DNA of 14,127 bases from a virus. Shown piece after piece: positions 1 to 10,292 of this stretch. The notes under the pieces are model-generated. The model searched no databases. It saw nothing but the letters and a program-made list of their open reading frames with translations, and was not told the origin of the DNA. The stretch spans positions 1-14,127 of the IMG/VR virus record IMGVR_UViG_3300021399_000006. One strand, given 5' to 3'. Numbering within the stretch: the first letter of the stretch is position 1; every line of letters begins with the position of its first letter. The translations under genes were made by a program, and so were the position numbers.

Positions 1-138
1 CCCATTCACATCAGGGGCTTTAGGTCTCACTGTATGTAGCCGGATTCACCCTTCCTATCCCCCACTCATACAGGATGGTTGATCGTTTTTATACCGCATC
101 TCCATTCTACGGTCAACTGAGCATTTGGCTCAGTTCAA

Positions 139-220
139 GCCAGCAATAGGATTTGAACCTATATCGTATTAGGCCTTACACTCCTTGGGGGAGCCGCTTT
201 ACCAATTAAGCTATACTGAC
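139..220 (-). tRNA. tRNA-like, class II length (82 nt), irregular anticodon arm; possible pseudogene
   Basis: T-arm ATAGG-TTCAAAT-CCTAT (146-162). Acceptor GTCAGTA/TGCTGGC pairs 7/7 with two G.U. D-arm GCTT/AAGC. The anticodon stem only folds with a 5-nt loop (CCCAA). The long variable region is about 18 nt. Confidence 0.4.
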
Positions 221-231
221 ATTTTTTTAGC

Positions 232-302
232 AGGGCCGGCGGGGTTCGAACCCACAAATGCAGGAATCAAAATCCTGTGTCTTACCGTTTGACTACGGCC
301 CT
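232..302 (-). tRNA. tRNA-Gln (anticodon TTG)
   Basis: Full cloverleaf: acceptor AGGGCCG/CGGCCCT, D-stem GTC/GAC, anticodon stem CAGGA/TCCTG with loop TTTTGAT, T-arm GTGGG-TTCGAAC-CCCGC, discriminator G. Confidence 0.85.
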
Positions 303-322
303 GTATACAAGAGACATTATTA

Positions 323-393
323 GTAGACCACGGGATTCGAACCCGTATATCAAAATTCGCAGTTTTGTATCTTATCCATTAGATTAAATCCAT
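323..393 (-). tRNA. tRNA with anticodon GCG (Arg); weak acceptor stem
   Basis: T-arm ACGGG-TTCGAAT-CCCGT (330-346). Anticodon stem CAAAA/TTTTG with loop CTGCGAA. D-stem ATCT/AGAT. The acceptor ATGGATT/GGTCTAC has an A1xC72 mismatch and three G.U pairs. Confidence 0.5.
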
Positions 394-439
394 TAATTTT
401 TTTTATTGCTGTGTGTCTCTTTATCAACTTTCTAAATAT

Positions 440-468
440 ATTATAATAAAAATTTTTATTTTTTTCAA
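440..468 (-). promoter_or_regulatory. sigma70-type promoter TTGAAA-17-TATAAT
   Basis: -35 at 463-468 and -10 at 440-445 (reverse complement), exact 17-nt spacer; drives leader and tRNAs at 393-139. Confidence 0.65.
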
Positions 469-472
469 ATAA

Positions 473-546
473 GCACAGAGTGGGATTTGAACCCACGAAT
501 AACGGTTTTGCAGACCGTTGCGGTAACCAGGCTGCGCCATCCGTGC
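473..546 (-). tRNA. tRNA-Cys (anticodon GCA)
   Basis: Acceptor GCACGGA/TCTGTGC, U8 and G9 present, anticodon stem ACGGT/ACCGT with loop CTGCAAA, T-arm GTGGG-TTCAAAT-CCCAC (480-496). Confidence 0.85.
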
Positions 547-587
547 AAAAAAGGTATGAAACATATAAATTTCACACCCCTTTTAAA

Positions 588-776
588 TTAATCAGCTGAT
601 TTTGCTTCAATATATTTAGGTTTAATTATAACTCGTTTTCGTAACGCATGAGTTGTCTGGAACATGCGGAAACGTGCTTCCCGCCTTGCTTCTTCTCGTT
701 CTTTTTTATCCTCAATATCATTAACAGGATTAAAAGACTCTAGGGCATTAGTGCCTACTGTTTTCCATTTAGACAT
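588..776 (-). CDS. hypothetical small protein (62 aa, basic/acidic)
   Basis: ORF with SD AAAGGAG about 8 nt upstream of ATG, TAA stop, co-directional with the operon. Confidence 0.6.
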   Translation of the reverse strand: MSKWKTVGTNALESFNPVNDIEDKKEREEARREARFRMFQTTHALRKRVIIKPKYIEAKSAD

Positions 777-788
777 TAATTTACTCCT

Positions 789-1175
789 TTAGTTAAGAAA
801 ACCTTCAAGAATTTTTACAAATTCATTACGGGTGATAGGGGTTGCCGCAGGTCTCTTTTCTTCTTTTGTCTCTTTTGTCTTTTTCTCTGAAGGCTGTTCT
901 AGAATTACTTCTACTAAATCTGCCAACCAAGGGGTTTCCTTCTCATATGTTTTAATATACTCAACAACTTCTTTGTTAAGAGCTTCAATCTTATCCTCAA
1001 GTCTTGCTCTTGCAAAAGCCTTTTCTGCTTCAAACTGTTTACGCTTTTCTGCTTCTTTACGACGTTTCTCTTCCGCTTCTGCCTCTGCCTTTTTTCTTTC
1101 ACTATCAAATTCGGCTTCAATACATTCTTTTTCTGAATCAAAAAACTCATCCAGAATTTCACTATAAAATTTCAT
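789..1175 (-). CDS. hypothetical E/K-rich coiled-coil protein (128 aa)
   Basis: ORF; SD GAGGAAAAAAGA-ATG; TAA stop; charged heptad-like repeats (AEAEAEEKRRKEAEKRK). Confidence 0.65.
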   Translation of the reverse strand: MKFYSEILDEFFDSEKECIEAEFDSERKKAEAEAEEKRRKEAEKRKQFEAEKAFARARLEDKIEALNKEVVEYIKTYEKETPWLADLVEVILEQPSEKKTKETKEEKRPAATPITRNEFVKILEGFLN

Positions 1176-1215
1176 TCTTTTTTCCTCTCTTTTTAAAATA
1201 TTTTATTAACGAAAG

Positions 1216-1288
1216 GTGGCTAACGGGACTTGAACCCGTAACAAGCGGTACCACAAACCGCTGGACTACCAAATTGTCCTATAACCAC
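1216..1288 (-). tRNA. tRNA-His (anticodon GTG)
   Basis: T-arm ACGGG-TTCAAGT-CCCGT (1223-1239). Anticodon stem GCGGT/ACCGC with loop TTGTGGT. D-stem GGAC/GTCC. Acceptor GTGGTTA/TAGCCAC. Discriminator C, as expected for His. Confidence 0.85.
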
Positions 1289-1291
1289 AGC

Positions 1292-1365
1292 TGGAGTGAC
1301 AGGATTTGAACCTGCGATACCGTGATCCCAAATCACGTGCCTTAACCAAACTAGACTACACCCCA
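1292..1365 (-). tRNA. tRNA-Pro (anticodon TGG)
   Basis: T-arm GCAGG-TTCAAAT-CCTGT (1299-1315). Anticodon stem CGTGA/TCACG with loop TTTGGGA. Acceptor TGGGGTG/CACTCCA. Confidence 0.85.
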
Positions 1366-1387
1366 ATATACAAGACACATAAATAAG

Positions 1388-1411
1388 TATTGATCTACCC
1401 ATTGATCTATT
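1388..1411. repeat. tandem direct repeat ATTGATCTAccc / ATTGATCTAttt
   Basis: Two adjacent 9/12-nt identical units between the T-arm element and tRNA-Pro. Confidence 0.4.
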
Positions 1412-1425
1412 TTGTTTTTCCTGGC

Positions 1426-1487
1426 AACAAAAATGGGATTTGAACCCATAACATATACTTTAGAGTATAAATTGCTGTATGTGTCTT
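1426..1487 (-). ncRNA. truncated tRNA-like element (T-arm plus 3' acceptor-like tail plus hairpin; no D-arm or 5' acceptor)
   Basis: T-arm ATGGG-TTCAAAT-CCCAT (1433-1449) preceded by the hairpin TATAC-TCTAAA-GTATA, whose 6-nt loop contains CUA. Upstream box AAGACACATACAGCAAT. No complementary 5' acceptor strand is found. Confidence 0.4.
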
Positions 1488-1499
1488 ATTATTAAATTA

Positions 1500-1733
1500 T
1501 TAACTTAACATAGCAAAATCTATAAATTTTTTTATATCATCTGCATTATAACAAACTAATTCCATTTCAGGAATGTCTGAATCTTCAAACATTTTAGCAA
1601 AAGCAATATATTGAGTAAGACGACTCTTTAGATTTAATCTATCGCCTTCTCCTGTTACTAATTCAACTTTTCCTGTACATTTGTCAACTGTTTCAAAAAA
1701 CTTTTCAATATCACTAATATGATATAACTTCAT
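1500..1733 (-). CDS. hypothetical protein (77 aa)
   Basis: ORF with SD AAAAGGAGAATAA-ATG; TAA stop. Confidence 0.6.
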   Translation of the reverse strand: MKLYHISDIEKFFETVDKCTGKVELVTGEGDRLNLKSRLTQYIAFAKMFEDSDIPEMELVCYNADDIKKFIDFAMLS

Positions 1734-1854
1734 TTATTCTCCTTTTATATAATCTCTATAAGCACAATATTCATCAAATGTTCCTTTGAATCCATTATTA
1801 ACAGCTTTAAGATATTCTTTGTTTAAAACAACTGAAAAATTAGTTTCCTACTAA

Positions 1855-2154
1855 TTAACTTGCATTACCGATTGCTAACTCATATTCTCTTTCCCTTTCT
1901 GCCATTGCGACAAGGCGTTTTACATCTGAATGATACCAATGTTTACCACCTCGTCTACCTTTTTCTGCCCCAAAAGCAGGTCTATGCTTTTTAGTTTTCC
2001 CGCTACAAAGAGGACAAGAGCAATGAACTTTATTCTTACTATATTGATGCAAATTATTATACCATGAGAAATGGTAAACTTGTTCTGAAATATTTCTTTT
2101 TCTAATTGCTTTTGTTACGCTATTGTGTCTTTTTTCTGCCAAAGTTCTACACAT
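1855..2154 (-). CDS. hypothetical basic Cys/His-containing protein (100 aa)
   Basis: ATG at 2154 is preceded by AAAGGAG at optimal spacing. The track ORF 1855..2307 extends upstream only through a TTG codon across the T-arm element, and that frame is closed by TAA at 2344-2346. Confidence 0.65.
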   Translation of the reverse strand: MCRTLAEKRHNSVTKAIRKRNISEQVYHFSWYNNLHQYSKNKVHCSCPLCSGKTKKHRPAFGAEKGRRGGKHWYHSDVKRLVAMAEREREYELAIGNAS

Positions 2155-2200
2155 AATAAACTCCTTTGAAACTTGATTAACGAAACATTTAACAATTAGC

Positions 2201-2224
2201 GGTGCGAGAGGGATTCGAACCCCC
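2201..2224 (-). ncRNA. T-arm plus 3' acceptor strand of a split/giant tRNA-like structure (see finding at 2201-2750)
   Basis: GGGGG-TTCGAAT-CCCTC followed by TCGCACC. There is no local anticodon or D arm. The matching 5' acceptor GGTGCGG lies about 545 nt upstream on the same strand. Confidence 0.45.
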
Positions 2225-2278
2225 AGCCCAATTAAGAGCAACGGTTTTGAAACGGTTTTAGAAGTTTTTAATAACCTC

Positions 2279-2683
2279 CTAAAAAATATAATCTTTAGCA
2301 AAATCAATATTTGCTGTTTGTCCAGATTTTGTTGGTAAAACTCTTAAAGTTTTTTCTACAAAACCATCTTTAGGAGCAGGATATAAATAAAAAATACCAT
2401 CTTTTTCAGTCATAAAAAAATCTATTTCTTTATTTGTATATTTCATTCTTTTGTTTCCTGCTCCTGTTGAATGCTGGCTATATCCATTAAAAACAAATGC
2501 ACTATGCTCTTCATCCTTCCATCGAGATGTTTTAATTTGTATTTTTAATAGTTTATTATCTACATCTAAAATAAAATCATATCTTGCATTATCAAACAGT
2601 GGTTTAGAAACAATAAAACCTGCTTCTATACATTTTAAGAAACATTTTTGCTATGTCATTGCTCCTTGAATTTGTGTATTCAT
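2279..2683 (-). CDS. hypothetical protein (about 134 codons) containing one internal in-frame TAG (2651-2653); possible nuclease-like (D..D.K) core
   Basis: Reading frame ATG(2683) NTQIQGAMT-TAG-QKCFLKCIEAGFIVSKPLFDNARYDFILDVDNKLLKIQIKTSRWKDEEHSAFVFNGYSQHSTGAGNKRMKYTNKEIDFFMTEKDGIFYLYPAPKDGFVEKTLRVLPTKSGQTANIDFAKDYIF. It is open for about 122 codons after the TAG in AT-rich DNA and ends at TAG 2279-2281 (next TAA 2258-2260). No well-spaced SD; the start is uncertain. Confidence 0.45.
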
Positions 2684-2934
2684 ATTATTATTTTTAAAAC
2701 TAATAATTCCGTTTCAAGACCGCACCTCCTCCCCACTAAGGTACCGCACCATATCAAGGCTTAAAAAGTTTCATTTTCTCTTTTTTCAGAGGTCAATTCC
2801 TATTAAGAATAAGAAATAGAAAACTTTCAAATAAAAGAAACTTGTCTATTTTACGACCAAAATTCTCCTAAGAATCATGTTAAATCTTGTAATTTTCAAC
2901 CCATTAAAAATAAAATTGCCGTATAAGCCTTAGC

Positions 2935-3021
2935 GCGGATGAGTGGATTCGAACCACCGGACCCAAATGTAGGATCAATACCTTAGCAGGGTACCGCATT
3001 AAACCTCTCTGCCACATCCGC
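2935..3021 (-). tRNA. tRNA-Ser (anticodon GCT), class II
   Basis: Perfect 7-bp acceptor GCGGATG/CATCCGC. T-arm GGTGG-TTCGAAT-CCACT. Anticodon stem TACC/GGTA with loop CTGCTAA. Long variable arm. Length 87 nt. Confidence 0.85.
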
Positions 3022-3032
3022 AAATAGGTAAC

Positions 3033-3104
3033 CACCCTTCTGGGATTCGAACCCAGGACTGTTGATTTAGAGTCAACTGACTTAGACCGCTTGTCGAAAG
3101 GGCG
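3033..3104 (-). tRNA. suppressor tRNA, anticodon CTA (reads UAG amber)
   Basis: Acceptor CGCCCTT/AAGGGTG (one G.U), U8 present, D-stem GAC/GTC, anticodon stem GTTGA/TCAAC with canonical 7-nt loop C-U-CUA-A-A, T-arm CTGGG-TTCGAAT-CCCAG, discriminator G. D-loop and discriminator are similar to the neighbouring tRNA-Gln. Confidence 0.8.
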
Positions 3105-3203
3105 TCACCAAGACAGATTAAAATTTGCTTAAATTAGATTAACAGTCCAATACAAAAATTAAAATAAATTGCTGTTTCTGTCTTTCTTTCATCTTATAAA
3201 TAT

Positions 3204-3232
3204 ATTATATAATAATTTTTTTAAAAAATCAA
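3204..3232 (-). promoter_or_regulatory. sigma70-type promoter TTGATT-17-TATAAT, followed by the conserved ATGAAAGAAAGACAGAAACAGCAA leader
   Basis: -35 at 3227-3232, -10 at 3204-3209. The first gene downstream is the CTA suppressor tRNA. Confidence 0.65.
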
Positions 3233-3243
3233 AAAATTTTTAA

Positions 3244-3354
3244 ATGCGGGCAAGGATTTGCACCTTACATGCCCTAATAGCCTTTATGCTACCAGACGTA
3301 TCGGATTATACTGGGGCTTACCTTATAAGCGTCTACCTATTCCGCCACCGCATT
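3244..3354 (-). tRNA. tRNA-Leu-like gene of aberrant length (about 111 nt) with an extra insertion between D-arm and anticodon arm; possible pseudogene or intron-like insert
   Basis: 5' region AATGCGG-T-G-GCGGAATAGGTAGACGC nearly matches the 5' region of the bona fide tRNA-Leu(CAA) here. T-arm TAAGG-TGCAAAT-CCTTG with acceptor 3' CCCGCAT. The middle region only folds as TTATA..(13 nt)..TATAA plus GTAGC-ATAAAG-GCTAT (6-nt loop). Confidence 0.4.
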
Positions 3355-3358
3355 TTTA

Positions 3359-3601
3359 TTATATTTTATATTTATATTCACTTATAATTTTACCATTTTC
3401 ATCAATATGCCATGTATGAGCACATTTAAAAGGATAATTTGCCTTATAAAGATTAATCCAAATATTTCCTCTTGGACAAAACCAATTTGCATAATTATAT
3501 CTTGCATTCATAGCATCATCAAAAGAAGTAAAAAGTTCTTTTATGCTCCCAGAATGTTCGTCATCTTCTGTTTCAATAGCATAAATATCAAAATTTAACA
3601 T
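3359..3601 (-). CDS. hypothetical protein (80 aa)
   Basis: ORF; SD AAAGGAG 9 nt upstream; follows tRNA-Val after a 40-nt gap (co-transcribed). Confidence 0.6.
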   Translation of the reverse strand: MLNFDIYAIETEDDEHSGSIKELFTSFDDAMNARYNYANWFCPRGNIWINLYKANYPFKCAHTWHIDENGKIISEYKYKI

Positions 3602-3640
3602 AAAGCAAATCTCCTTTAAAATATATTTTTAAAACGAAAT

Positions 3641-3713
3641 GCATGATATAGGATTTGAACCTATGACCCTTTCGGTGTAAACGAAATGCTCATCCCAGCT
3701 GAGCTAATCATGC
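3641..3713 (-). tRNA. tRNA-Val (anticodon TAC)
   Basis: Perfect acceptor GCATGAT/ATCATGC. D-stem GCTC/GAGC. Anticodon stem TTTCG/CGAAA with loop TTTACAC. T-arm ATAGG-TTCAAAT-CCTAT. Confidence 0.9.
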
Positions 3714-3888
3714 ATATTGGCGGGAATCTCTTTCCCGCCTAATCCGACTTTTGAATTTCACAGGTATCGGGGAGGGACCAGGGATTAAATCCAGCCCACC
3801 TTAATACTTAGTTTTCAAACATTCCTCACGAAAACTAAAAAAATGGAGGGTCTTCCATATCGCACGTGCATATTGATATAGAATAAGT

Positions 3889-3963
3889 GGACCTTATGGG
3901 AATCGAACCCATCTGACTACTAGTGTGCAAAACTAGTGACCACCCCTTGCAGTCCCAAAGCCC
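3889..3963 (-). tRNA. tRNA-Ala (anticodon TGC)
   Basis: Acceptor GGGCTTT/AAGGTCC with the G3.U70 Ala identity pair. Anticodon stem CTAGT/ACTAG with loop TTTGCAC. T-arm ATGGG-TTCGATT-CCCAT. Confidence 0.8.
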
Positions 3964-4172
3964 AGTACTAAGAGGCCTGATTACCCTCTTTATAGCAGTT
4001 TGATCCTGCTTGCCAATGACGTTATAGGTCCGCCGCCCGCACATTTATTTGCTAAAACACGGTTTCCAGGGTATCTTCGTATAGTCACATTACCGCAAAG
4101 AGATATATACCTTTATCATATTATAGACGCGTTTCTATAATATTCTCCCAAAATTTCTATTGTACATAGAAT

Positions 4173-4245
4173 ACTACGAAGTGGATTCGAACCACTGACG
4201 ACTTCCTTATCAGAGAAGCATTCTAACCTACTGAATTATCGTAGT
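4173..4245 (-). tRNA. tRNA-Ile (anticodon GAT)
   Basis: Perfect acceptor ACTACGA/TCGTAGT. Anticodon stem CTTCT/GGAAG with loop CTGATAA. T-arm AGTGG-TTCGAAT-CCACT. Confidence 0.85.
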
Positions 4246-4422
4246 AAATAAGGGTTAAAAAGAAAGGAAGAAACGCGTTTTTCTTTCATTGAATAACCTT
4301 TCTCAATTAACCATCTAATTTTTATGCCTGCCTAGCCTTACACTAGAATATTACATATGTGATAAGTTGTTCTGTTGCATCGCTATTTTGAACTATCCCT
4401 GTCTCCTTATCAAAATTAGACA

Positions 4423-4445
4423 CCTGCGCGGCCGCAGGCTTTTTG
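4423..4445. terminator. GC-rich hairpin (CCTGCG-CGGC-CGCAGG, contains GCGGCCGC) with a T5 run on the plus side and a weaker T-run on the minus side; probable end of the tRNA-Tyr/Phe transcription unit
   Basis: On the plus strand the stem is followed by CTTTTTG. On the minus strand it is preceded by AAAAAG and followed by TGTCTAATTTTG. It lies 16 nt downstream of the tRNA-Tyr 3' end. Confidence 0.45.
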
Positions 4446-4461
4446 CGGCGTCCCGCTTAGT

Positions 4462-4544
4462 CCTGGCGGAGGGAATCGAACCCACTCGGTGCCGAAGCCA
4501 GCAGATTTACAGTCTGCCCCGTCTCCTTAGCGGTCTACCCCAGG
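4462..4544 (-). tRNA. tRNA-Tyr (anticodon GTA), class II
   Basis: Anticodon stem GCAGA/TCTGC with loop CTGTAAA. Variable-arm hairpin present. T-arm GTGGG-TTCGATT-CCCTC (one mismatch). Acceptor CCTGGGG/CGCCAGG (one mismatch). Length 83 nt. Confidence 0.8.
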
Positions 4545-4552
4545 ATAAAAGT

Positions 4553-4625
4553 GCTCAGAACTAGATTTGAACTAGTAACGCGAGGATCTTCAGTCCTCCG
4601 CTCTACCTATTAGAGCTATCTGAGC
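4553..4625 (-). tRNA. tRNA-Phe (anticodon GAA)
   Basis: Perfect acceptor GCTCAGA/TCTGAGC. Anticodon stem GAGGA/TCCTC with loop CTGAAGA. T-arm ACTAG-TTCAAAT-CTAGT. Confidence 0.9.
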
Positions 4626-4703
4626 ATAACAAGACATATAATTTGTAAATAATGACTGTTTACGAGACAGTTGTCTTAACCATTTGACTACATAAGCGAC
4701 AAT

Positions 4704-4766
4704 GCTTGTGACAGGATTCGAACCTGTAAACTTACAAAAGTAAGAAGTTGCTGTATATGTCTTTGT
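4704..4766 (-). ncRNA. truncated tRNA-like element (T-arm plus 3' tail plus tetraloop hairpin), paralogous to the element at 1426-1487
   Basis: T-arm ACAGG-TTCGAAT-CCTGT (4711-4727), hairpin CTTAC-TTTT-GTAAG, upstream box AAGACATATACAGCAAC (15/17 identical to the box at 1471-1487). No 5' acceptor. Confidence 0.4.
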
Positions 4767-4834
4767 TTTTATGGATTCTTTATTTTATTTGATGTTGGTG
4801 CAGTTATTTGCCTAAATCCATATAAGCCAACAAT

Positions 4835-4914
4835 AATTCTGGTGGGATTCGAACCCACATGCCTATGACCGCAGGGTTTGAGCCTACTGCGTATACCAAT
4901 TCCGCCACAGAATC
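4835..4914 (-). tRNA. tRNA-Leu (anticodon CAA), class II
   Basis: 5' GATTCTG-T-G-GCGGAATTGGTATACGC. Anticodon stem GTAGG/CCTGC with loop CTCAAAC. 12-nt variable arm. T-arm GTGGG-TTCGAAT-CCCAC. Acceptor 3' CAGAATT. Confidence 0.85.
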
Positions 4915-4916
4915 GT

Positions 4917-4999
4917 AGTGGCGAAGGGATTCGAACCCTCAATCCTCTAACGGCAACGGATTTTAAGTCCGTCATGAATACCAGTTCCATCACGCCACC
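4917..4999 (-). tRNA. tRNA-Leu (anticodon TAA), class II
   Basis: Anticodon stem ACGGA/TCCGT with loop CTTAAAA. 15-nt variable arm. T-arm GAGGG-TTCGAAT-CCCTT. Acceptor GGTGGCG/CGCCACT. It nearly abuts the preceding tRNA. Confidence 0.85.
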
Positions 5000-5093
5000 A
5001 TATAAATTTAAACGGTTATAAAGATAAAATTTTATTATTTTTCTATTTTAACAGGGAAAAATAATAAAAGCCTGTCTAACAATTTAATAATGA

Positions 5094-5462
5094 TTACTGC
5101 TCACGAGAAGCAATAAACGCATCATATTCATCCTTGAAGCACCAAGCAAATCCATAAGCGTTATGGGTCTTAGTTCTTCCGTTTAAGGCATCGCCTACGC
5201 CTGACTTACCTTCCTGGCCAATTGCGGCAAGGGCTTCCTTCTGGGTTGCAAACTCTGCAATAACTGCATAAGTCTCGGGGTCAAGCTGAAGAACACCTGA
5301 CTTATTCGGACTCTTACGCTTACGAGCAGCTGCCGCCTCATCTTCCTCAATACGAGCAAGCATTGCTCGCAAAGCATCCATAGTCTGCTCACGAATACCT
5401 TCATTTACATCTGTAGCATTTTCAAAGTAGAAAATCAAACCTTCAATCTGTTTCTTATCCAT
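5094..5462 (-). CDS. hypothetical protein (122 aa)
   Basis: ORF with SD AAAAGGAGTAAAT-ATG, driven by a perfect-consensus promoter at 5504-5532; TAA stop. Confidence 0.7.
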   Translation of the reverse strand: MDKKQIEGLIFYFENATDVNEGIREQTMDALRAMLARIEEDEAAAARKRKSPNKSGVLQLDPETYAVIAEFATQKEALAAIGQEGKSGVGDALNGRTKTHNAYGFAWCFKDEYDAFIASREQ

Positions 5463-5503
5463 ATTTACTCCTTTTTACTCTTGTTTTTAATTTCTATAAA
5501 TAT

Positions 5504-5532
5504 ATTATACTAAAAATTTTTTATCTTGTCAA
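5504..5532 (-). promoter_or_regulatory. perfect-consensus sigma70 promoter TTGACA-17-TATAAT
   Basis: -35 at 5527-5532, -10 at 5504-5509; upstream of the SD-ATG at 5462. Confidence 0.75.
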
Positions 5533-6179
5533 CAATTGAATAACTTAATTATATCTATGAATAACACCCCTTCGGGTTGCTGGCAATAACCTTCTCTTAT
5601 ATTCGACCACCAAGGAGACATACCTGAGCGGTTAGGAGCGACCTAAACGCTATATGCCCCATCTGTTCAAGACAGATAAATCTTGTAGAGGACTTTGCAT
5701 ACCTCTAACTTTCAGCTACCTTTCAGAAAATTTACATAATAACTTGTATAAGAAGTTATTCAAATTTTGTTGTCTACGCACTTTTAGCCTACTCGTACCT
5801 TGACCCAATCTTATACACGACTTCCGCCGCTTCATGTGCGCTAACCCCTTATGGAAATTCCAAGGTTTGCAAAGTTTTCCACGCTTCACCTAACTTGGAT
5901 TAGTGCTCTCGTTAAAGAACCCTATATTATGGAGTCGATTGGAACAGTGTCTTTAAGAGCGATTACCCCAGTGCTATTGACTAAACCATTTCTTTAGACC
6001 TGGCGTTTTATACGTCACCGCATAAAAACTTTTTTCCTAAGAAAGTATCCTTCCTTATTCTGGTTATTCGTAAAGCCAATACCTCAGCGTCATGGAATTG
6101 ACGTTTATCACTGAGTTGCTTCATAAATATAACTAAATTATTCAATTGTCAATGTTCTTTTGTTGATAATTCAACATAG

Positions 6180-6249
6180 ATCTCAAGTAGGGGTCGAACC
6201 TACATCTTACCTTTTTACCAGGCGCGCACTACCATTATGCTACTGAGAT
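6180..6249 (-). tRNA. tRNA-like gene with atypical anticodon loop GGUAAAA (possible anticodon TAA, G at position 33)
   Basis: Good acceptor ATCTCAG/TTGAGAT. U8-A9. D-stem GCAT/GTGC. T-arm GTAGG-TTCGACC-CCTAC. The anticodon stem pairs 4/5. Confidence 0.45.
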
Positions 6250-6461
6250 TCCTTATATATGTATATCATCAGAAAGGAAGTGAATATAAAAAGGGATAAA
6301 CCCATTTATAACAATGCAAAGGGGAGTAGCGTGTAGCACTATCATCTAATGTTCTCCCTAGTTTTTGTTTTGGAATTTCGCCAAAAGGACTTATTTGAAA
6401 TATTGGAGAGTGCTTAGTCTCGTAATCCTTCACAGGGCTTTTTCGGTAGCCTGAACCTAAT

Positions 6462-6534
6462 AGCGGAAGTGGGATTTGAACCCACGTGATACGGCGTATG
6501 AGACCGCGCTGGTACCTCTCCAGTCCATTCCGCA
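6462..6534 (-). tRNA. tRNA-Met (anticodon CAT; whether initiator, elongator or Ile-lysidine type is undetermined)
   Basis: T-arm GTGGG-TTCAAAT-CCCAC. Anticodon stem GCGGT/GCCGT (two G.U) with loop CTCATAC. D-stem CTGG/CCAG. The acceptor has a mismatch at pair 1-72. Confidence 0.65.
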
Positions 6535-6635
6535 ATATTAATCAAGACAGTTTAAAATATAGCCTATTTAATCCTAAATTTAAATGCTTGTATTTTTTCT
6601 TTTGTTGCTGTTTCTGTCTTTCATTTTCTATAAAT

Positions 6636-6664
6636 ATTATAACAAAAATTTTTTTAAAAATCAA
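6636..6664 (-). promoter_or_regulatory. promoter TTGATT-17-TGTTATAAT (extended -10)
   Basis: -35 at 6659-6664, -10 at 6636-6641, TGn present; drives leader and tRNA-Met. Confidence 0.7.
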
Positions 6665-6854
6665 ATACGGCATATGCATCTACCGTATTAGTCTATGAGG
6701 TTTACCACTCCGCTTACCATTTTCCGCTCAGGTTAGCTTTAGGAGCCTTGCTGATGTTTTTACACTTTACTAAAACACCCTTTCCGACAGACAAACAGTC
6801 AACCTACTTATATTAATATCATTGCCTAAGGTTATATTAATACTTTTGGTAAAT

Positions 6855-6910
6855 GCTCTATGCAGGAGTCGAACCTACACTCACAAAAGTAAGTTCCATC
6901 ATAATAGAGC
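6855..6910 (-). ncRNA. 56-nt 'armless' tRNA-like minihelix (perfect 7-bp acceptor plus T-arm plus one tetraloop hairpin; no D-arm or anticodon arm)
   Basis: GCTCTAT ... CTTAC-TTTT-GTGAG ... GTAGG-TTCGACT-CCTGC ... ATAGAGC with discriminator A. The hairpin resembles the one in the 4704-4766 element. Confidence 0.45.
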
Positions 6911-6990
6911 AGTCTCCTTTTATCTCTCTTATATTTTAAAAGAGCCAAAAAATAATGCTCTGAAAGAGGAAAGTATGATACGTATCAAGT

Positions 6991-7063
6991 AGCCCCTGGG
7001 GGAATTGAACCCACCATCTTGACCTTGAAAGGGTCATATCCTGTCCTTTTAGAAGAAGGAGCC
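6991..7063 (-). tRNA. tRNA-Glu (anticodon TTC)
   Basis: Anticodon stem TGACC/GGTCA with loop CTTTCAA. T-arm GTGGG-TTCAATT-CCCCC. Acceptor GGCTCCT/AGGGGCT (all paired including G.U). Confidence 0.85.
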
Positions 7064-7087
7064 ATATTTCTTTCATTTTCTATAAAT

Positions 7088-7116
7088 ATTATAATAAAAA
7101 TTTTTTAAAATTGCAA
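7088..7116 (-). promoter_or_regulatory. promoter TTGCAA-17-TATAAT
   Basis: -35 at 7111-7116, -10 at 7088-7093; drives tRNA-Glu(TTC) after a leader of about 20 nt. Confidence 0.65.
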
Positions 7117-7266
7117 ATAAAAATGGGAACTTATATTAACACTGTATTCCCCGATAGGTTTGCGCGCGCCTTATCTTACAGCGGGTTTTCCTAAGTCCAG
7201 TTTTCCTTGTCATTCCCATGCATTTATATACCGAGCGAGAACAGACGCGGTTAAGGAGTCCTTAGT

Positions 7267-7346
7267 AGGGGACACGGGATTCGAACCCGCACGCACAGGG
7301 CACTAGATCCTAAGTCTAGGGTGGCTACCAGTTACACCAATCCCCC
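7267..7346 (-). tRNA. tRNA-Leu (anticodon TAG), class II
   Basis: Acceptor GGGGGAT/GTCCCCT. U8-G9. D-stem GTG/CAC. Anticodon stem CTAGA/TCTAG with loop CTTAGGA. 12-nt variable arm. T-arm GCGGG-TTCGAAT-CCCGT. Confidence 0.85.
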
Positions 7347-7518
7347 ATATAAGATAGATGCTTGCCATAGCTTTAGCCCCGCTCGGGTATCTATCGTACC
7401 CTATCTCATTCACTGGAGATGCAGTAAAAGTTTTACCTTTATAACTTTCAAAGATACTTATTCTTCATCGGGCGATAAGTTCTTACCTGACCCTTTCCCT
7501 TCACACCTCAAAGGATGA

Positions 7519-7585
7519 AAACGGCTATAATTTCAATAGCTTAGATTTACATTGGCAGAAGGTAAATCAACTTCTTTTTTACTCA
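7519..7585. repeat. copy A of a repeat unit (cggctat ... caaNagcttagatttaca ... gaaggtaaaNcaacttc)
   Basis: Shares three blocks with copy B. It contains the hairpins GCTAT-AATTTCA-ATAGC and AGAAG-GTAAATCAA-CTTCT. Confidence 0.5.
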
Positions 7586-7651
7586 AATTTTAAAAATTTG
7601 AGATAGGTTGAACCTACACCTAAAGGACTTTTTCCAGTAACACCCCAAAAA

Positions 7652-7740
7652 GCAAAGCGGCTATCTATCAACAGCTTAGATTTACACATTCAACCGAGTA
7701 GATTTACGTATTAATAGGAAGGTAAACCAACTTCCTAACG
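7652..7740. repeat. copy B of the same repeat unit, with a 31-nt internal insertion that duplicates tagatttac
   Basis: Hairpin GGAAG-GTAAACCAA-CTTCC, where the outer pair covaries (A-T in copy A, G-C in copy B). Confidence 0.5.
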
Positions 7741-7810
7741 ACCTAGTGGGGAATTGAACCCCAGTCTCTCGGGCGACAACCGAGTGTAATTACCTTTATA
7801 CGACAAGGCC
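7740..7810 (-). tRNA. tRNA-Asp (anticodon GTC)
   Basis: Anticodon stem CTCGG/CCGAG with loop TTGTCGC. T-arm TGGGG-TTCAATT-CCCCA. Acceptor GGCCTTG/CTAGGTC (one mismatch). Confidence 0.8.
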
Positions 7811-7997
7811 AAACATTAAATAGCTTAGTCCATTTTTTAGGCTCCCTTCTCACTATAGCCTAAATTCCACAGGTCATGACTCCTGTTACTCTAGGTAGTT
7901 CACTTATAGTCTCACTCTCCCGACTTCCGTGATTTGGCGGACTCTCTTGATGTTTATGTACACTATTAAATCAAGTCACCATTGCTATTTATGTAGC

Positions 7998-8070
7998 GGG
8001 AGCAGTAGGACTTGAACCTACGACATTTTGCTTAACAGGCAAACGCTCTAACCAACTGAGCTATACTCCC
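7998..8070 (-). tRNA. tRNA-Asn (anticodon GTT)
   Basis: Acceptor GGGAGTA/TGCTCCC. Anticodon stem TTTGC/GCAAA with loop CTGTTAA. T-arm GTAGG-TTCAAGT-CCTAC. Confidence 0.9.
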
Positions 8071-8217
8071 AAATATGAGGGTTACTTTGCGTCTTTTATA
8101 CCGTTTCCCACTAAAGCCACATATCATACGCCTCCAGACGGGCTAATAAGAATCGAGTCTGGATATTTGGTTATGCCGGTGGTAGTTTACCCTCAAAATC
8201 CATGATAACGGTTTAAT

Positions 8218-8291
8218 CATCCCTACAGGCTTTGAACCTGTGTTTCAAGATTGAGAATCTTGTGTCCTGAACCGAACTAGACGAAGGGACG
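8218..8291 (-). tRNA. tRNA-Glu (anticodon CTC)
   Basis: Anticodon stem CAAGA/TCTTG with loop TTCTCAA. T-arm ACAGG-TTCAAAG-CCTGT. Acceptor CGTCCCT/AGGGATG. Confidence 0.85.
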
Positions 8292-8300
8292 ACGGATTAA

Positions 8301-8480
8301 TTAATCCTCATATTCTGTACGTACATAATTTTCTGTTACTTCATAATGAAATCCAATCCAACCAAATCTATCTTCCAAAAATCTCACAGCAGAGAAGCCT
8401 TTAACAAATGTTATATGCTTCTGATTTACATCGTCAAGATACTCAACCATGTAGATAACAGCTGTTCTCTCATTTTTCAT
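8301..8480 (-). CDS. possible small protein (59 aa, below the ORF-track cutoff)
   Basis: ATG at 8480; frame MKNERTAVIYMVEYLDDVNQKHITFVKGFSAVRFLEDRFGWIGFHYEVTENYVRTEYED-TAA; immediately downstream of promoter 8547-8575; weak SD. Confidence 0.35.
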   Translation of the reverse strand: MKNERTAVIYMVEYLDDVNQKHITFVKGFSAVRFLEDRFGWIGFHYEVTENYVRTEYED

Positions 8481-8546
8481 AATTTAAAGACCCCCTGAAA
8501 TGATATTTTTTAGTTTGTTTTCGTTTCTTTTTCTTACGATATAAAT

Positions 8547-8575
8547 ATTATAACAAAAAATTTTTAAAAATTCAA
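8547..8575 (-). promoter_or_regulatory. promoter TTGAAT-17-TGTTATAAT (extended -10)
   Basis: -35 at 8570-8575, -10 at 8547-8552; drives the small ORF and tRNA-Glu(CTC). Confidence 0.7.
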
Positions 8576-8711
8576 ATGATATGCAGTGTGCTGTTACGCC
8601 AAAGGGAAGTCAGTCCTTACCAGTTACGGGGTGACTTTCTACTTCTATTTAATAAAATAGTCCCACTCTTTAAAAGATGGATGCTTTTAATCCTACTTTC
8701 TGCATATAAGA

Positions 8712-8783
8712 GCCACCGACAGGAATTGAACCTGCAACCGTTTGATTACAAATCAAATGCACTACCAATTGTGCTACGGGGGC
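8712..8783 (-). tRNA. tRNA-Thr (anticodon TGT)
   Basis: Anticodon stem TTTGA/TCAAA with loop TTTGTAA. T-arm GCAGG-TTCAATT-CCTGT. Acceptor GCCCCCG/CGGTGGC (one mismatch). Confidence 0.8.
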
Positions 8784-8787
8784 ATAT

Positions 8788-8860
8788 GGACCACTAGGGA
8801 TTTGAACCCTAATCTGACAGATTAAGAGTCTGCTATGTTAACCGTTAACACCAGTAATCC
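8788..8860 (-). tRNA. tRNA-Lys (anticodon CTT)
   Basis: Anticodon stem GCAGA/TCTGT with loop CTCTTAA. T-arm TAGGG-TTCAAAT-CCCTA. Acceptor GGATTAC/GTGGTCC (G.U pairs). D-stem GTGT/ACAT. Confidence 0.8.
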
Positions 8861-8971
8861 AGGTTTATACAGCTACATACCTACCATATCAGGACATTAC
8901 TCTGATTTTCTAAGTTTTTCTTAGTATGCTATGATTTTACATTATATGGTGTTATGGACCCTGTATAACAT

Positions 8972-9043
8972 GCGCTCGATGGGACTCGAACCCACGTTAC
9001 CTTGATTAAAAGTCAAGTGCTTAATCCGCTAAGCTACGAGCGC
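8972..9043 (-). tRNA. tRNA-Lys (anticodon TTT)
   Basis: Perfect acceptor GCGCTCG/CGAGCGC. Anticodon stem CTTGA/TCAAG with loop CTTTTAA. T-arm GTGGG-TTCGAGT-CCCAT. Confidence 0.9.
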
Positions 9044-9118
9044 AAAAGATATTTAATTGTTTTTTGCCCGTAGGCTTACGTTTTCGTTTCATTTCTTATC
9101 TCCTCACTTTGTATAAAT

Positions 9119-9147
9119 ATTATAACAAAAATTTTTTAAAATTTCAA
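9119..9147 (-). promoter_or_regulatory. promoter TTGAAA-17-TGTTATAAT (extended -10)
   Basis: -35 at 9142-9147, -10 at 9119-9124. It sits immediately downstream of tRNA-Gly(GCC) and drives tRNA-Lys(TTT). Confidence 0.7.
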
Positions 9148-9152
9148 ATAGA

Positions 9153-9223
9153 GCAGACAGTGGGAATTGAACCCACATTTTTAGCTTGGCAAGCTAACAT
9201 ATTAACCGTTATATTATGCCTGC
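9153..9223 (-). tRNA. tRNA-Gly (anticodon GCC)
   Basis: Anticodon stem TTAGC/GCTAA with loop TTGCCAA. T-arm GTGGG-TTCAATT-CCCAC. Acceptor GCAGGCA/TGTCTGC. Confidence 0.85.
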
Positions 9224-9422
9224 TTGAACTAGGATATATGGCCAACTTACCTAGATATATTTTAGCACCTTACCAGGCCGCACTTATTTTAACTACCATG
9301 TGCAATTGGCTGCGTGTTCACCATACCGCTGGATTGATTTACGATCAACAACGCCTTATCTCTACATTACGAATTGAATAAGGTACAATCGTCTCTATTA
9401 AAACTCAACCCGAGAAGGGTCA

Positions 9423-9493
9423 GCCCCATGTGGGAATCGAACCCACCTATCTAGCTTGGAAGGCTAGCATTTTAGCCGATAAATCAATGGGAC
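9423..9493 (-). tRNA. tRNA-Gly (anticodon TCC)
   Basis: Anticodon stem CTAGC/GCTAG with loop CTTCCAA. T-arm GTGGG-TTCGATT-CCCAC. Acceptor GTCCCAT/ATGGGGC. Confidence 0.85.
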
Positions 9494-9500
9494 AAATATA

Positions 9501-9561
9501 AAAACTATTAAAGGTACGTTTTATTGGTGGTATGCGGCACGCACTTGATTTTAATAGTTTT
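9501..9561 (-). promoter_or_regulatory. leader stem-loop (12-bp inverted repeat AAAACTATTAAA / TTTAATAGTTTT enclosing a GC hairpin) followed by a T-rich tract, between the promoter and the tRNA-Gly genes; possible attenuator or processing site
   Basis: Perfect 12-bp arms at 9501-9512 and 9550-9561, nested inner stem TGCG/CGCA, then TTTTTATATTT before the tRNA 5' end. Confidence 0.4.
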
Positions 9562-9577
9562 TATTTGTTATGATAAT

Positions 9578-9606
9578 ATTATATCAAAAATTTTTGAACA
9601 TTTCAA
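9578..9606 (-). promoter_or_regulatory. promoter TTGAAA-17-TGATATAAT
   Basis: -35 at 9601-9606, -10 at 9578-9583; followed by a structured leader before tRNA-Gly(TCC). Confidence 0.7.
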
Positions 9607-9620
9607 ATTATTTTTGACCT

Positions 9621-9920: not shown

Positions 9921-9936
9921 ATTTTTCTCCTTTAAT

Positions 9937-10283: not shown

Positions 10284-10292
10284 ATTAATTTT

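What the first reader, a model, noticed from the sequence alone, without database searches (positions are those of the whole stretch)
1426..1487. Family of truncated tRNA-like elements (T-arm plus 3' tail plus short hairpin) sharing an upstream box with promoter leaders
Elements at 1426-1487 and 4704-4766 have an excellent T-arm and a 3' acceptor-like strand but no D-arm or 5' acceptor. Each carries a small hairpin and a 17-nt box AAGACA(C/T)ATACAGCAA(T/C) that is 15/17 identical between them. The same box (AAGACAGAAACAGCAA / AAGAGACACACAGCAA) sits at +10 to +30 of three promoter leaders (3168-3190, 6604-6620, 407-425). The 56-nt element at 6855-6910 is a perfect acceptor plus tetraloop hairpin plus T-arm minihelix. 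These look like a deliberate family (processing punctuation, RNase P/Z substrates or tRNA-derived regulatory RNAs), not random decay. The hairpin loop of the 1426 element reads UCUAAA, which contains CUA.
Basis: seen in the sequence. Interest (0 to 1): 0.6.

Follow-up and report, generated by a model that had tools for sequence, protein, structure and literature searches.

The report
Phage Y-RNA-like tRNA mimics
The "truncated tRNAs" are complete tRNA-shaped decoy RNAs whose two halves are encoded in swapped order and held by a conserved clamp stem, and they belong to a large, apparently undescribed RNA family that sits next to a gene for a Ro60-like protein in gut and rumen Clostridia and their large phages.

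Summary
The sequence observation holds. The reading "no D-arm, no 5' acceptor" does not.

- **Anatomy.** Read on the minus strand, E1 (1371-1487) and E2 (4630-4763) continue downstream into a 5' acceptor strand and a D-arm. The order is clamp-5', V hairpin, T-arm, acceptor stem closed by a loop, D-arm, clamp-3'. This is the architecture of YrlA-type bacterial Y RNAs (sub-threshold Rfam hit, full model length).
- **The box.** It is the 5' strand of a 7-10 bp clamp (AAG-NNNN...NNNN-CTTG) followed by an unpaired ACAGCAA. All five boxes in the window have the 3' partner.
- **Family.** I found 196 distinct clamp RNAs in phage and Clostridia contigs. Their cargo mimics tRNA parts. The helices show strong covariation.
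- **Protein partner.** Clamps are linked, in both search directions, to a DUF2828/DUF7788 gene. Its predicted fold matches Ro60 best. In Butyrivibrio the order is WYL regulator, two clamp RNAs, DUF2828, RtcB.
- **This phage.** The contig that is 100% identical to the window encodes DUF2828 2.1 kb past the window edge, on the array strand.
- **Best explanation.** These are Y-RNA analogues that dock a Ro60-like protein, probably for tRNA repair, surveillance or decoy functions. Binding and function are inferred.
- **Prior description.** No Rfam family or paper covers them. E3 (6855-6910) is separate and unresolved.

The parts
1371..1487 (-). E1: clamp RNA with a permuted tRNA-like cargo. Minus-strand layout:
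- clamp 5' strand 1487-1479
- ACAGCAA 1478-1472
- V hairpin 1469-1454
- T-arm 1449-1433
- acceptor 3' strand 1432-1426
- loop GCCAGGAAA 1425-1417
- acceptor 5' strand 1416-1410
- TA 1409-1408
- D-arm 1407-1392
- clamp 3' strand 1380-1372
- conserved G 1371
   Evidence: RNAfold gives this fold, z = -4.57. Rfam YrlA scores 29.3 bits over model positions 1-114 of 114; the gathering cut-off is 69. My covariance model R1 scores 106.9 bits, but E1 is a seed member. Segment parse.
4630..4763 (-). E2: clamp RNA with a permuted tRNA-like cargo plus an anticodon-like arm. Minus-strand layout:
- clamp 5' strand 4763-4754
- ACAGCAA 4754-4748
- V hairpin 4744-4731
- T-arm 4727-4711
- acceptor 3' strand 4710-4704
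- loop 4703-4698
- acceptor 5' strand 4697-4691
- TA 4690-4689
- D-arm 4688-4673
- anticodon-like arm ACTGT-CTCGTAA-ACAGT 4671-4655
- clamp 3' strand 4640-4631
- G 4630
   Evidence: RNAfold. Model R1 scores 65.2 bits, E = 9e-11, and E2 was not in the seed. Rfam YrlA 19.9 bits. Rfam's 'tRNA' at 4633-4697 (33.1 bits) is the 5' two-thirds of this element. In the closest divergent relative, L029/L044, the 7-nt loop is CATAAAA instead of CTCGTAA.
3109..3184 (-). Clamp A: short clamp RNA at the start of a transcription unit. The clamp is AAGACAGA/TCTGTCTT with ACAGCAA. The cargo includes an anticodon-stem-loop-like hairpin, TGGA-CUGUUAA-UCUA, at 3135-3149.
   Evidence: 37.1 bits through the clamp ends. 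A promoter-like site lies at 3232-3204.
6543..6620 (-). Clamp B: short clamp RNA at the start of a transcription unit. The clamp is AAGACAG/CTGTCTT with ACAGCAA. The cargo is a small hairpin.
   Evidence: 29.6 bits. A promoter-like site lies at 6664-6636.
308..421 (-). Clamp C: the clamp AAGAGACA/TGTCTCTT with ACAGCAA encloses a normal-order tRNA-like unit. ARAGORN and Rfam call that unit tRNA-Arg(GCG) at 321-394, but its acceptor stem is weak.
   Evidence: 34.0 bits. The weak acceptor stem (one mismatch, three G-U pairs) is my reading of the sequence. A promoter-like site lies at 468-440.
1290..1365 (-). tRNA-Pro, starting 5 nt after E1. It is an example of the rule that every clamp in the window ends 4-7 nt before a tRNA. 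The others are tRNA-Phe at 4625, the tRNA with anticodon CTA at 3104, tRNA-Met at 6535 and tRNA-Gln at 302.
   Evidence: The idea that RNase P cleavage of this tRNA defines the clamp RNA's 3' end is inference.
6855..6910 (-). E3: a 56-nt D-arm-less tRNA-like minihelix. It is listed because the finding included it, but it has no clamp and I do not count it in the family.

Best explanation
E1, E2 and the three 'leader boxes' are five members of one family of small non-coding RNAs built like bacterial Y RNAs.

Anatomy (shown):
- Each RNA begins AAG-NNNN(NN) and ends NNNN-CTTG. The two ends pair into a 7-10 bp clamp.
- An unpaired, nearly invariant ACAGCAA follows the 5' strand.
- The clamp presents a cargo that mimics a tRNA or a part of one. 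E1 and E2 carry a whole tRNA-shaped body in permuted order with the acceptor stem closed by a loop. Clamp C carries a normal-order tRNA-like unit. Clamp A carries an anticodon-stem-loop mimic.

Mechanism (inferred):
- The clamp plus ACAGCAA is the docking site for the phage's own Ro60-like protein (DUF2828 + DUF7788/vWA). That protein is encoded 2.1 kb past the window edge, at the downstream end of the same tRNA array.
- The tRNA-like cargo then recruits or competes for tRNA-recognising factors such as repair ligase, processing or modification enzymes, or host anticodon nucleases. The particle would serve tRNA repair, surveillance or decoy functions during infection.
- The RNAs are probably released from the array transcripts by the promoter-proximal 5' end and by RNase P cutting the tRNA that starts 4-7 nt downstream.
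For: Structure:
- RNAfold gives clamp + V + T + closed acceptor + D for E1 and E2.
- Rfam YrlA matches E1 end to end, but below threshold.
- Model R1 finds E2 at E = 9e-11 and 62 relatives at E < 1e-6.
- On 55 distinct sequences, 94.8% of cells are paired and 20 of 22 pairs change on both sides. The covariation score is 0.725, against 0.177 for shuffles and 0.07-0.13 for slid partners.
- The acceptor hairpin has 24 distinct sequences and averages 6.58 of 7 pairs, against 3.25 with swapped partners.

Clamp:
- Of 269 distinct boxes, 180 have the exact complement plus CTT downstream, against 12.8 with permuted cores. There are 28 different cores. The next base is G in 179 of 180.

Cargo mimicry:
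- 41 of 111 short clamps carry a 7-nt YUNNNRN loop hairpin, against 3.1 in shuffled interiors.

Protein link, RNA to protein:
- A DUF2828 gene lies inside 18 of 45 viral loci and 21 of 26 bacterial loci that were chosen only by the RNA pattern.

Protein link, protein to RNA:
- In 63 phage loci chosen only by DUF2828, all 73 clamps are on the gene's strand. Of these, 44 end within 500 nt upstream of its start codon; about 1.5 would be expected if placement were uniform.

Bacterial operon:
- In Butyrivibrio the order is WYL regulator, two clamp RNAs, DUF2828/DUF7788, RtcB. This parallels the Salmonella rsr-yrlBA-rtcBA operon (PMC7790460).

Fold:
- The AlphaFold model of the DUF2828 protein (pLDDT 75.8) has Ro60/TROVE structures as its top 11 PDB matches, aligned over the full length, E from 1e-8 to 7e-6.

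This genome:
- L152 is 100% identical to window positions 1-11175. It encodes a 502-aa DUF2828+DUF7788 protein 2,123 nt beyond window position 1, on the array strand.
Against: - No binding, expression or processing data exist. The RNA-protein contact is inferred from gene neighbourhood and from analogy with Ro60 and Y RNA.
- The Ro60-binding motif of known bacterial Y RNAs (GNCGAAN0-1G, PMC4201824) is absent.
- The Rfam YrlA score is far below the gathering cut-off (29.3 against 69).
- DUF2828 has no sequence-level match to TROVE or to any PDB chain. The structural match is moderate (TM 0.4-0.5, from a medium-confidence model).
- In phages both the clamps and DUF2828 sit in tRNA arrays, so part of their co-location could be indirect. 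The bacterial operons, which have no tRNA array, argue against that.
- RtcB is rarely next to DUF2828 in phages (4 of 80 loci).
- In the window the clamps are 2-9 kb from the DUF2828 gene.
- The covariation alignment was fitted to the model.
Confidence: 0.65

Rival explanations
1. These are genuine circularly permuted tRNA genes. The transcript is opened at the acceptor loop by RNase P and 3' processing. It either works as a two-piece tRNA held together by the clamp or is re-joined, and it then decodes.
For: - The 3' half precedes the 5' half with all arms present, and positions 8-9 read TA or TG.
- E1 and 6 of 31 relatives encode GCCA directly after the 7-bp acceptor strand.
- E2 and several relatives have a 5-bp stem with a canonical 7-nt CU-NNN-AA loop.
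- 'Closed-clamp' relatives with open acceptor ends exist.
- M. smegmatis YrlA is cut by RNase P and receives CCA (PMC4201824).
Against: - E1 and most members have no anticodon arm.
- The E2 loop is CTCGTAA here but CATAAAA, which lacks U33, in the relative L029/L044.
- Many clamps carry only a hairpin or a T-arm.
- The clamp is a continuous helix with no bulge-helix-bulge motif.
- No bacterial pathway for such re-joining is known (my own knowledge).
- This reading explains neither ACAGCAA nor the link to DUF2828.
Confidence: 0.1
2. The clamp is only a processing or stability signal for tRNA-array transcripts, for example an RNase III-type site or a 5' protective helix. The cargo would be incidental.
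For: - Three of the five clamps start about 8-20 nt after promoter-like sites.
- All five end 4-7 nt before a tRNA, as do 37 of 82 clamps in RNA-picked viral loci.
Against: - In bacteria the clamps precede an ORF, not a tRNA.
- A single-stranded heptamer and a 3' G that are nearly invariant across diverse genomes point to sequence-specific recognition.
- The cargo is non-random tRNA mimicry.
- The clamps show tight strand and position linkage to DUF2828.
Confidence: 0.15
3. The clamps are cis-acting leader elements that regulate expression of the DUF2828 (and RtcB) mRNA. They would not be trans-acting RNAs.
For: - 44 of 73 clamps end within 500 nt upstream of the DUF2828 start codon.
- In bacteria the last clamp ends about 20-30 nt before the start codon.
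Against: - In the window five copies lie 2-9 kb from the gene. tRNAs and promoter-like sites separate them from it.
- Several copies with different cargo occur in one genome.
- Salmonella Y RNAs are also encoded within the operon yet are Y RNAs of the Ro60 orthologue Rsr (PMC7790460).
Confidence: 0.06
4. The elements are decayed tRNA fragments, recombination scars, or a miniature inverted-repeat mobile element whose terminal repeats are the box and its complement.
For: tRNA arrays recombine at conserved T-arm sequences. The box and its complement form an inverted repeat.
Against: - Compensatory changes maintain four helices across 55 distinct sequences.
- Clamp cores differ within a single genome, yet each matches its own partner.
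- All clamps near DUF2828 are co-oriented with it.
Confidence: 0.03

Closest known systems
YrlA-type bacterial Y RNAs (Rfam RF02553; Chen et al. 2014, PMC4201824), partners of Ro60/Rsr in the rsr-yrlBA-rtcBA operon
   Same: - The 5' and 3' ends pair into a stem that carries a conserved 5'-strand motif.
- The internal domain has the order V hairpin, T-arm, acceptor stem closed by a loop, D-arm.
- The RNA is encoded beside a ring-protein gene, and in bacteria beside RtcB.
- A second, non-tRNA-like RNA lies in tandem, like YrlB.
- The family occurs in phages as well as in bacteria.
- Some members carry CCA-like sequence at the acceptor loop.
   Different: - The conserved motif is ACAGCAA, flanked by AAG...CTTG, and not GNCGAAN0-1G.
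- The Rfam score is below the cut-off.
- The neighbouring protein is DUF2828/DUF7788, not a Pfam TROVE protein.
- The cargo is far more modular: anticodon-loop mimics, a T-arm alone, normal-order tRNA-like units and closed-clamp permutations.
- The phage copies are scattered through a tRNA array, often at transcription starts.
Deinococcus radiodurans Yrn1 Y RNA
   Same: It has tRNA-like features in the other orientation: a D-like element, an anticodon-like arm and a T-arm sit between the paired ends. This resembles clamp C and the 19 'normal-order' clamps.
   Different: There is no sequence similarity, and the protein-binding motif differs. Yrn1 tethers PNPase, whereas no partner is known here.
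Circularly permuted tRNA genes (Cyanidioschyzon merolae, some archaea) and permuted two-piece tmRNA genes
   Same: The 3' half (T-arm and acceptor 3' strand, sometimes with CCA) is encoded upstream of the 5' half (acceptor 5' strand and D-arm).
   Different: - There is no bulge-helix-bulge junction.
- Most members have no anticodon arm.
- The setting is bacterial and phage.
- ARAGORN reports no tmRNA.
- The ends form a conserved clamp instead of being joined.
Viral and mRNA tRNA-like structures, and T4 stable RNAs C and D encoded in the T4 tRNA cluster (my own recollection)
   Same: These are non-decoding tRNA-shaped RNAs made by a virus and, in T4, encoded among tRNA genes.
   Different: They share no clamp motif, and I know of no link to a Ro60-like protein. 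This comparison rests on memory only.

Membership tests
YrlA / Y RNA-like (RF02553) | Score at or above the Rfam gathering cut-off (69 bits) | tested here: not met
   E1 scores 29.3 bits and E2 19.9 bits. Both alignments span the full model, positions 1-114.
YrlA / Y RNA-like (RF02553) | The 5' and 3' ends pair into a stem that encloses the rest of the RNA | tested here: met
   The clamp is 9 bp in E1 and 10 bp in E2.
YrlA / Y RNA-like (RF02553) | tRNA-like domain in the order V, T-arm, closed acceptor stem-loop, D-arm | tested here: met
.
YrlA / Y RNA-like (RF02553) | GNCGAAN0-1G motif near the 5' end, the presumed Ro60 contact (PMC4201824) | tested here: not met
   The 5' region reads AAGACACAUACAGCAA and contains no GNCGAA. 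ACAGCAA is conserved in its place.
YrlA / Y RNA-like (RF02553) | Encoded next to a Ro60 orthologue (TROVE domain) | tested here: inconclusive
   The neighbouring gene is DUF2828+DUF7788, with no Pfam TROVE hit. Its model matches Ro60 structures best. The linkage is strong. In this phage the gene lies 2.1 kb beyond the window.
YrlA / Y RNA-like (RF02553) | Physical binding to the Ro60 protein | not testable with these tools
   This needs immunoprecipitation or in vitro binding.
Canonical tRNA (RF00005) | Cloverleaf in standard 5'-to-3' order with open acceptor ends and a 7-nt anticodon loop | tested here: not met
   ARAGORN makes no call at E1 or E2. Rfam tRNA at E1 scores 21.4 bits, below the cut-off of 29. 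The hit at 4633-4697 covers only part of E2 and has no real T-arm.
Circularly permuted tRNA genes | 3' half encoded upstream of the 5' half of the same tRNA | tested here: met
   The acceptor strands pair at 7 of 7 positions in E1 and 6 of 7 in E2 across a short loop.
Circularly permuted tRNA genes | Termini form a bulge-helix-bulge splice motif and restore a normal anticodon arm when joined | tested here: not met
   The termini form a continuous helix. E1 has no anticodon arm. The E2 loop is not conserved in L029/L044.
Permuted (two-piece) tmRNA | tRNA-like domain plus a tag-peptide reading frame | tested here: not met
   ARAGORN, which reports tmRNA genes, finds none in the window. Rfam finds no tmRNA.

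The most novel reading that the evidence does not exclude
DUF2828 proteins and clamp RNAs form a second Ro60/Y-RNA-type ribonucleoprotein system. The DUF2828 family is large: at least 8,000 homologues were scored (the search's candidate cap) and at least 555 viral loci encode one. In this system one universal docking clamp (AAG-stem, ACAGCAA, CTTG) displays interchangeable mimics of tRNA parts. These are the whole L-shape in either circular permutation, the T-arm alone, or an anticodon stem-loop with a particular 'anticodon'. Phages with tRNA arrays would deploy sets of these RNAs as baits, competitive inhibitors or damage sensors against host anticodon nucleases. In Clostridia the same particle would work with RtcB in tRNA repair.
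Probability: 0.35. Interest if true: 0.85.

Novelty: new variant of a known kind. Interest (0 to 1): 0.72.

Why it matters
- **A new handle on Y RNAs.** Y RNAs and Ro60 are conserved from bacteria to humans, but their bacterial roles remain poorly defined. Known bacterial Y RNAs were found only beside recognisable TROVE genes.
- **An orphan family explained.** The result proposes an RNA partner and a fold for a large family of unknown function (DUF2828/DUF7788).
- **A searchable signature.** The motif AAG-N4...ACAGCAA...N4'-CTTG recovers many RNAs from sequence alone.
- **Natural variation to exploit.** The cargo differs widely between members, which should show what the tRNA-like module is for.
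- **Phage tRNA arrays.** These arrays are currently read as codon-usage or anti-defence devices. Here the array carries a protein-RNA surveillance or decoy layer as well.
- **Annotation.** tRNA finders skip the permuted tRNA-like elements or call them as partial tRNAs, as with the spurious 65-nt 'tRNA' at 4633-4697.

Tried and rejected
- **Cultured or deposited phages.** Megablast of the whole window and blastn of a clamp element against 50,697 phage records found nothing.
- **Self-cleaving ribozyme.** No Rfam ribozyme family hit, even at E <= 1. By eye the box matches no hammerhead, twister, pistol or hatchet core.
- **Antitermination (boxA/nut-like) leader.** This fits the promoter-proximal position. 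It does not explain the 3' partner, the cargo, or the copies that are not at transcription starts.
- **RNase III-type punctuation, MITE, pseudogene.** See the rival explanations.
- **Sequence link from DUF2828 to Ro60.** phmmer against PDB gave nothing, and Pfam gave no TROVE hit even at E <= 10. Only the fold search linked them.
- **Literature.** I could not retrieve Burroughs & Aravind 2016 (NAR), which I recall discussing TROVE-like proteins in RNA-repair operons. A prior proposal that DUF2828 is TROVE-like therefore cannot be excluded. Searches for DUF2828, Y RNA + phage, and tRNA array + tRNA-like found no description of these RNAs.
- **More permuted copies in the window.** Model R1 with filters off finds only E1 and E2. 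The hit at 8735-8846 is the T-arm of tRNA-Lys plus the D-arm of tRNA-Thr, a false positive of the kind Chen et al. warned about.
- **E3-type minihelices elsewhere.** They occur only in near-identical relatives.
- **RtcB in phage loci.** It is mostly absent within 6 kb of DUF2828.
- **Window ORFs.** Ten ORFs gave no significant Pfam assignment.

Full report
**Setting**

The window is a phage tRNA array read on the minus strand. ARAGORN tRNAs, one of them with the amber-reading anticodon CTA. Rfam adds a ROOL RNA at 5545-6139. Sigma-70-like promoter sites head several transcription units. I therefore read every element of the finding on the minus strand.

**Checking the observation**

- The box AAGACA.A.ACAGCAA occurs five times, all on the minus strand. 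Chance expectation is 0.18.
- The T-arms at 1433-1449 and 4711-4727 are real.
- The stated intervals, however, stop halfway through each element.
- After the E1 T-arm come TTTTGTT, G, CCA, then AACAAAA, which is the exact complement of TTTTGTT. Next come TA, a textbook D-arm (GATC-AATGGGTA-GATC), and finally ATGTGTCTT, the complement of the box.
- E2 has the same layout, plus a 5-bp stem with the 7-nt loop CUCGUAA.
- RNAfold returns exactly this fold for both: an outer stem, a small hairpin, the T-arm, an acceptor stem closed by a loop, and the D-arm (z = -4.57 for E1).
- So the D-arm and the 5' acceptor strand exist. They are encoded after the 3' half, not before it.

**What the fold resembles**

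An E-value Rfam scan matched E1 over the full length of RF02553, YrlA or 'Y RNA-like' (29.3 bits against a cut-off of 69). E2 matched more weakly. Chen et al. 2014 (PMC4201824) describe YrlA as follows:
- paired ends carrying a 5' GNCGAAN0-1G motif;
- then a V stem-loop, a T stem-loop, an acceptor-like stem-loop and a D stem-loop;
- encoded beside the Ro60 orthologue in more than 250 bacteria and phages;
- in M. smegmatis, cut by RNase P and extended with CCA.

E1 and E2 share this topology but not the motif.

**The box is half of a clamp**

All five boxes in the window have a downstream partner ending in CTTG.
- Clamps A (3109-3184) and B (6543-6620) are short and promoter-proximal.
- Clamp C (308-421) encloses the unit called tRNA-Arg(GCG). 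By my reading its acceptor stem is weak.
- All five clamps end 4-7 nt before a normal tRNA.

**Family**

- The pattern box + T-loop hit 43 stretches of viral contigs, mostly phages of 50-196 kb. It also hit 26 stretches in Clostridia genomes, including four cultured Butyrivibrio isolates.
- In an unbiased test, 180 of 269 distinct boxes have the exact complement of their 4-nt core plus CTT within 260 nt. With permuted cores the figure is 12.8. There are 28 different cores, and the following base is G in 179 of 180.
- I counted 196 distinct clamp RNAs: 31 permuted tRNA-like, 19 normal-order tRNA-like, 18 with a T-arm only or a T-arm plus a hairpin, and 128 without a T-arm.
- Of 111 short clamps, 41 carry a hairpin with a 7-nt anticodon-like YUNNNRN loop, such as CUUGAAA, CUUUUAA or CUGUUAA. 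Shuffled interiors give 3.1. Clamp A has CUGUUAA.
- Some relatives are the opposite circular permutation. The acceptor is open, and the clamp is closed by a loop and inserted at the anticodon arm.

**Covariation**

I built a covariance model from 20 permuted members.
- It finds E2, which was not in the seed, at 65.2 bits.
- It finds 62 matches at E < 1e-6.
- On 55 distinct sequences, 94.8% of cells pair and 20 of 22 pairs change on both sides. The covariation score is 0.725, against 0.177 for shuffles and 0.07-0.13 for slid partners. All seven acceptor pairs covary.
- Caveat: the alignment was fitted to the model.
- An independent parse gives 24 distinct acceptor stems with 6.58 of 7 pairs, against 3.25 with swapped partners.

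**The protein link**

- In the Clostridia loci, two clamp RNAs lie in tandem about 20-30 nt upstream of an ORF.
- In Butyrivibrio sp. XPD2002 that ORF is DUF2828 + DUF7788. The next gene is RtcB, and a divergent WYL-domain gene lies upstream. This mirrors rsr-yrlBA-rtcBA in Salmonella (PMC7790460).
- Among loci chosen only by the RNA pattern, tblastn finds DUF2828 in 18 of 45 viral and 21 of 26 bacterial loci.
- In the other direction, at least 555 viral loci encode a DUF2828 relative. In 63 of them with full flanks, all 73 clamps are on the gene's strand and 44 end within 500 nt upstream of its start.
- 28 of 36 such loci also have co-oriented tRNAs within 6 kb.
- DUF2828 has no sequence match in PDB. 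An AlphaFold model (pLDDT 75.8) has Ro60/TROVE structures as its top 11 Foldseek hits, aligned over the full length, E from 1e-8 to 7e-6. vWA domains follow.

**This genome**

An ENA contig of 124,767 bp (L152) is 100% identical to window positions 1-11175. It encodes a 502-aa DUF2828+DUF7788 protein 2,123 nt beyond window position 1, on the array strand. Four more tRNAs and a nucleotidyltransferase-like ORF lie in between. A syntenic relative, L044, has the same gene.

**Interpretation**

Shown:
- the fold and its covariation;
- the clamp and its motif;
- the tRNA-mimic cargo;
- the reciprocal gene linkage;
- the Ro60-like fold of the protein.

Inferred:
- the clamp plus ACAGCAA docks the DUF2828 protein;
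- the cargo engages tRNA-recognising enzymes or nucleases;
- RNase P cleavage of the downstream tRNA sets the 3' end.

Hughes et al. suggested that YrlA might competitively inhibit an anticodon nuclease (PMC7790460). The anticodon-loop mimics found here fit that idea but do not prove it.

**Rivals**

- A functional permuted tRNA is unlikely. E1 has no anticodon arm, and the E2 loop is not conserved in L029/L044.
- Pure 'punctuation' does not explain the motif, the cargo or the DUF2828 linkage.

**E3 and prior description**

- E3 (6855-6910) has no clamp. It is 96-98% conserved, but only in near relatives. It remains an unexplained tRNA-like minihelix.
- No Rfam 15 family covers the clamps.
- Literature searches found no description of them.
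- I could not read Burroughs & Aravind 2016.

Noticed in passing
window 5545-6139 (-): A full-length ROOL RNA (RF03087, 276.7 bits) sits inside the tRNA array, directly after a perfect TTGACA-17-TATAAT promoter at 5532-5504.
   Followed up: no
window 3032-3104 (-), 9936-10007 (-): One tRNA has the amber-reading anticodon CTA; ARAGORN labels it 'Pyl', and it is directly preceded by clamp A. Another has a predicted 4-base anticodon (tttg). Both suggest stop-codon recoding or frameshift suppression in this phage. By eye, several minus-strand reading frames appear to be interrupted by TAG.
   Followed up: no
window ~2200-2751 (-): An apparent split class-II tRNA. The 5' half (acceptor, D-arm, start of the anticodon arm) is at about 2751-2705. 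The 3' half (long variable arm, T-arm at 2211-2221, acceptor) is at about 2270-2200. They are separated by about 430 nt that hold a called 141-aa ORF with a PDDEXK_5 (PF11645) hit (L152 8493-8918, equivalent to window 2258-2683). It looks like an endonuclease-bearing insertion in a tRNA gene. The relative L044 shows a similar ORF-bearing interruption in its tRNA-Gln (about 16370-16900).
   Followed up: partly
window 3241-3358 (-): A tRNA-like stretch with a class-II-type D-arm (GGCGGAATAGGTAGACGC) and a variant T-loop (GGTGCAAATCC). ARAGORN and Rfam both miss it. It may be a tRNA with an insert.
   Followed up: no
window 3715-3886, 3964-4170, 4247-4459, 6250-6459, 6665-6854, 7090-7264, 7347-7737, 7812-7995, 8071-8215, 8576-8709, 8862-8969, 9224-9421, 10008-10141 (all -): Blocks of 100-400 nt lie between tRNAs. 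They look richer in G+C than the ORFs, contain no ORF and match no Rfam family. They may be further structured RNAs.
   Followed up: no
L003 119-237 and 330-449; L099 5052-5168, 5384-5506, 5591-5705; L102 5432-5554: 'Closed-clamp' tRNAs. They have normal open acceptor ends, a D-arm and a T-arm. A hairpin NNNNCTTG-loop-AAGNNNN followed by ACAGCAA is inserted at or beside the anticodon arm. This is the opposite circular permutation of E1 and E2. Rfam calls them tRNAs of 115-123 nt.
   Followed up: partly
L152 12304-13074 (+), about 1.1-1.9 kb beyond window position 1: A 256-aa ORF immediately upstream of the DUF2828 gene has weak, sub-threshold hits to nucleotidyltransferase families, including RlaP ('RNA repair pathway DNA polymerase beta family', E = 0.007). 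This would fit an RNA-repair context.
   Followed up: partly
window 4633-4697 (-), 321-394 (-), 8735-8846 (-): Annotation traps. Rfam's 65-nt 'tRNA' at 4633-4697 is part of E2. The 'tRNA-Arg(GCG)' at 321-394 lies inside clamp C and has a weak acceptor stem. Adjacent tRNAs (the T-arm of one plus the D-arm of the next) score as false permuted elements with my model.
   Followed up: yes
window 6179-6249 (-), 6990-7063 (-): The 'tRNA-Leu(TAA)' is only 71 nt, which is short for a class-II tRNA. A second tRNA is called by Rfam (42.9 bits) but not by ARAGORN. Both may be atypical.
   Followed up: no
L061 (MAG 'Bacillota bacterium Bin_C1_11', contig of 68 kb): A contig binned into a bacterial MAG matches window 137-7118 in blocks of 80-94% identity and carries an identical E2. 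It is probably a related phage contig mis-binned as bacterial.
   Followed up: no
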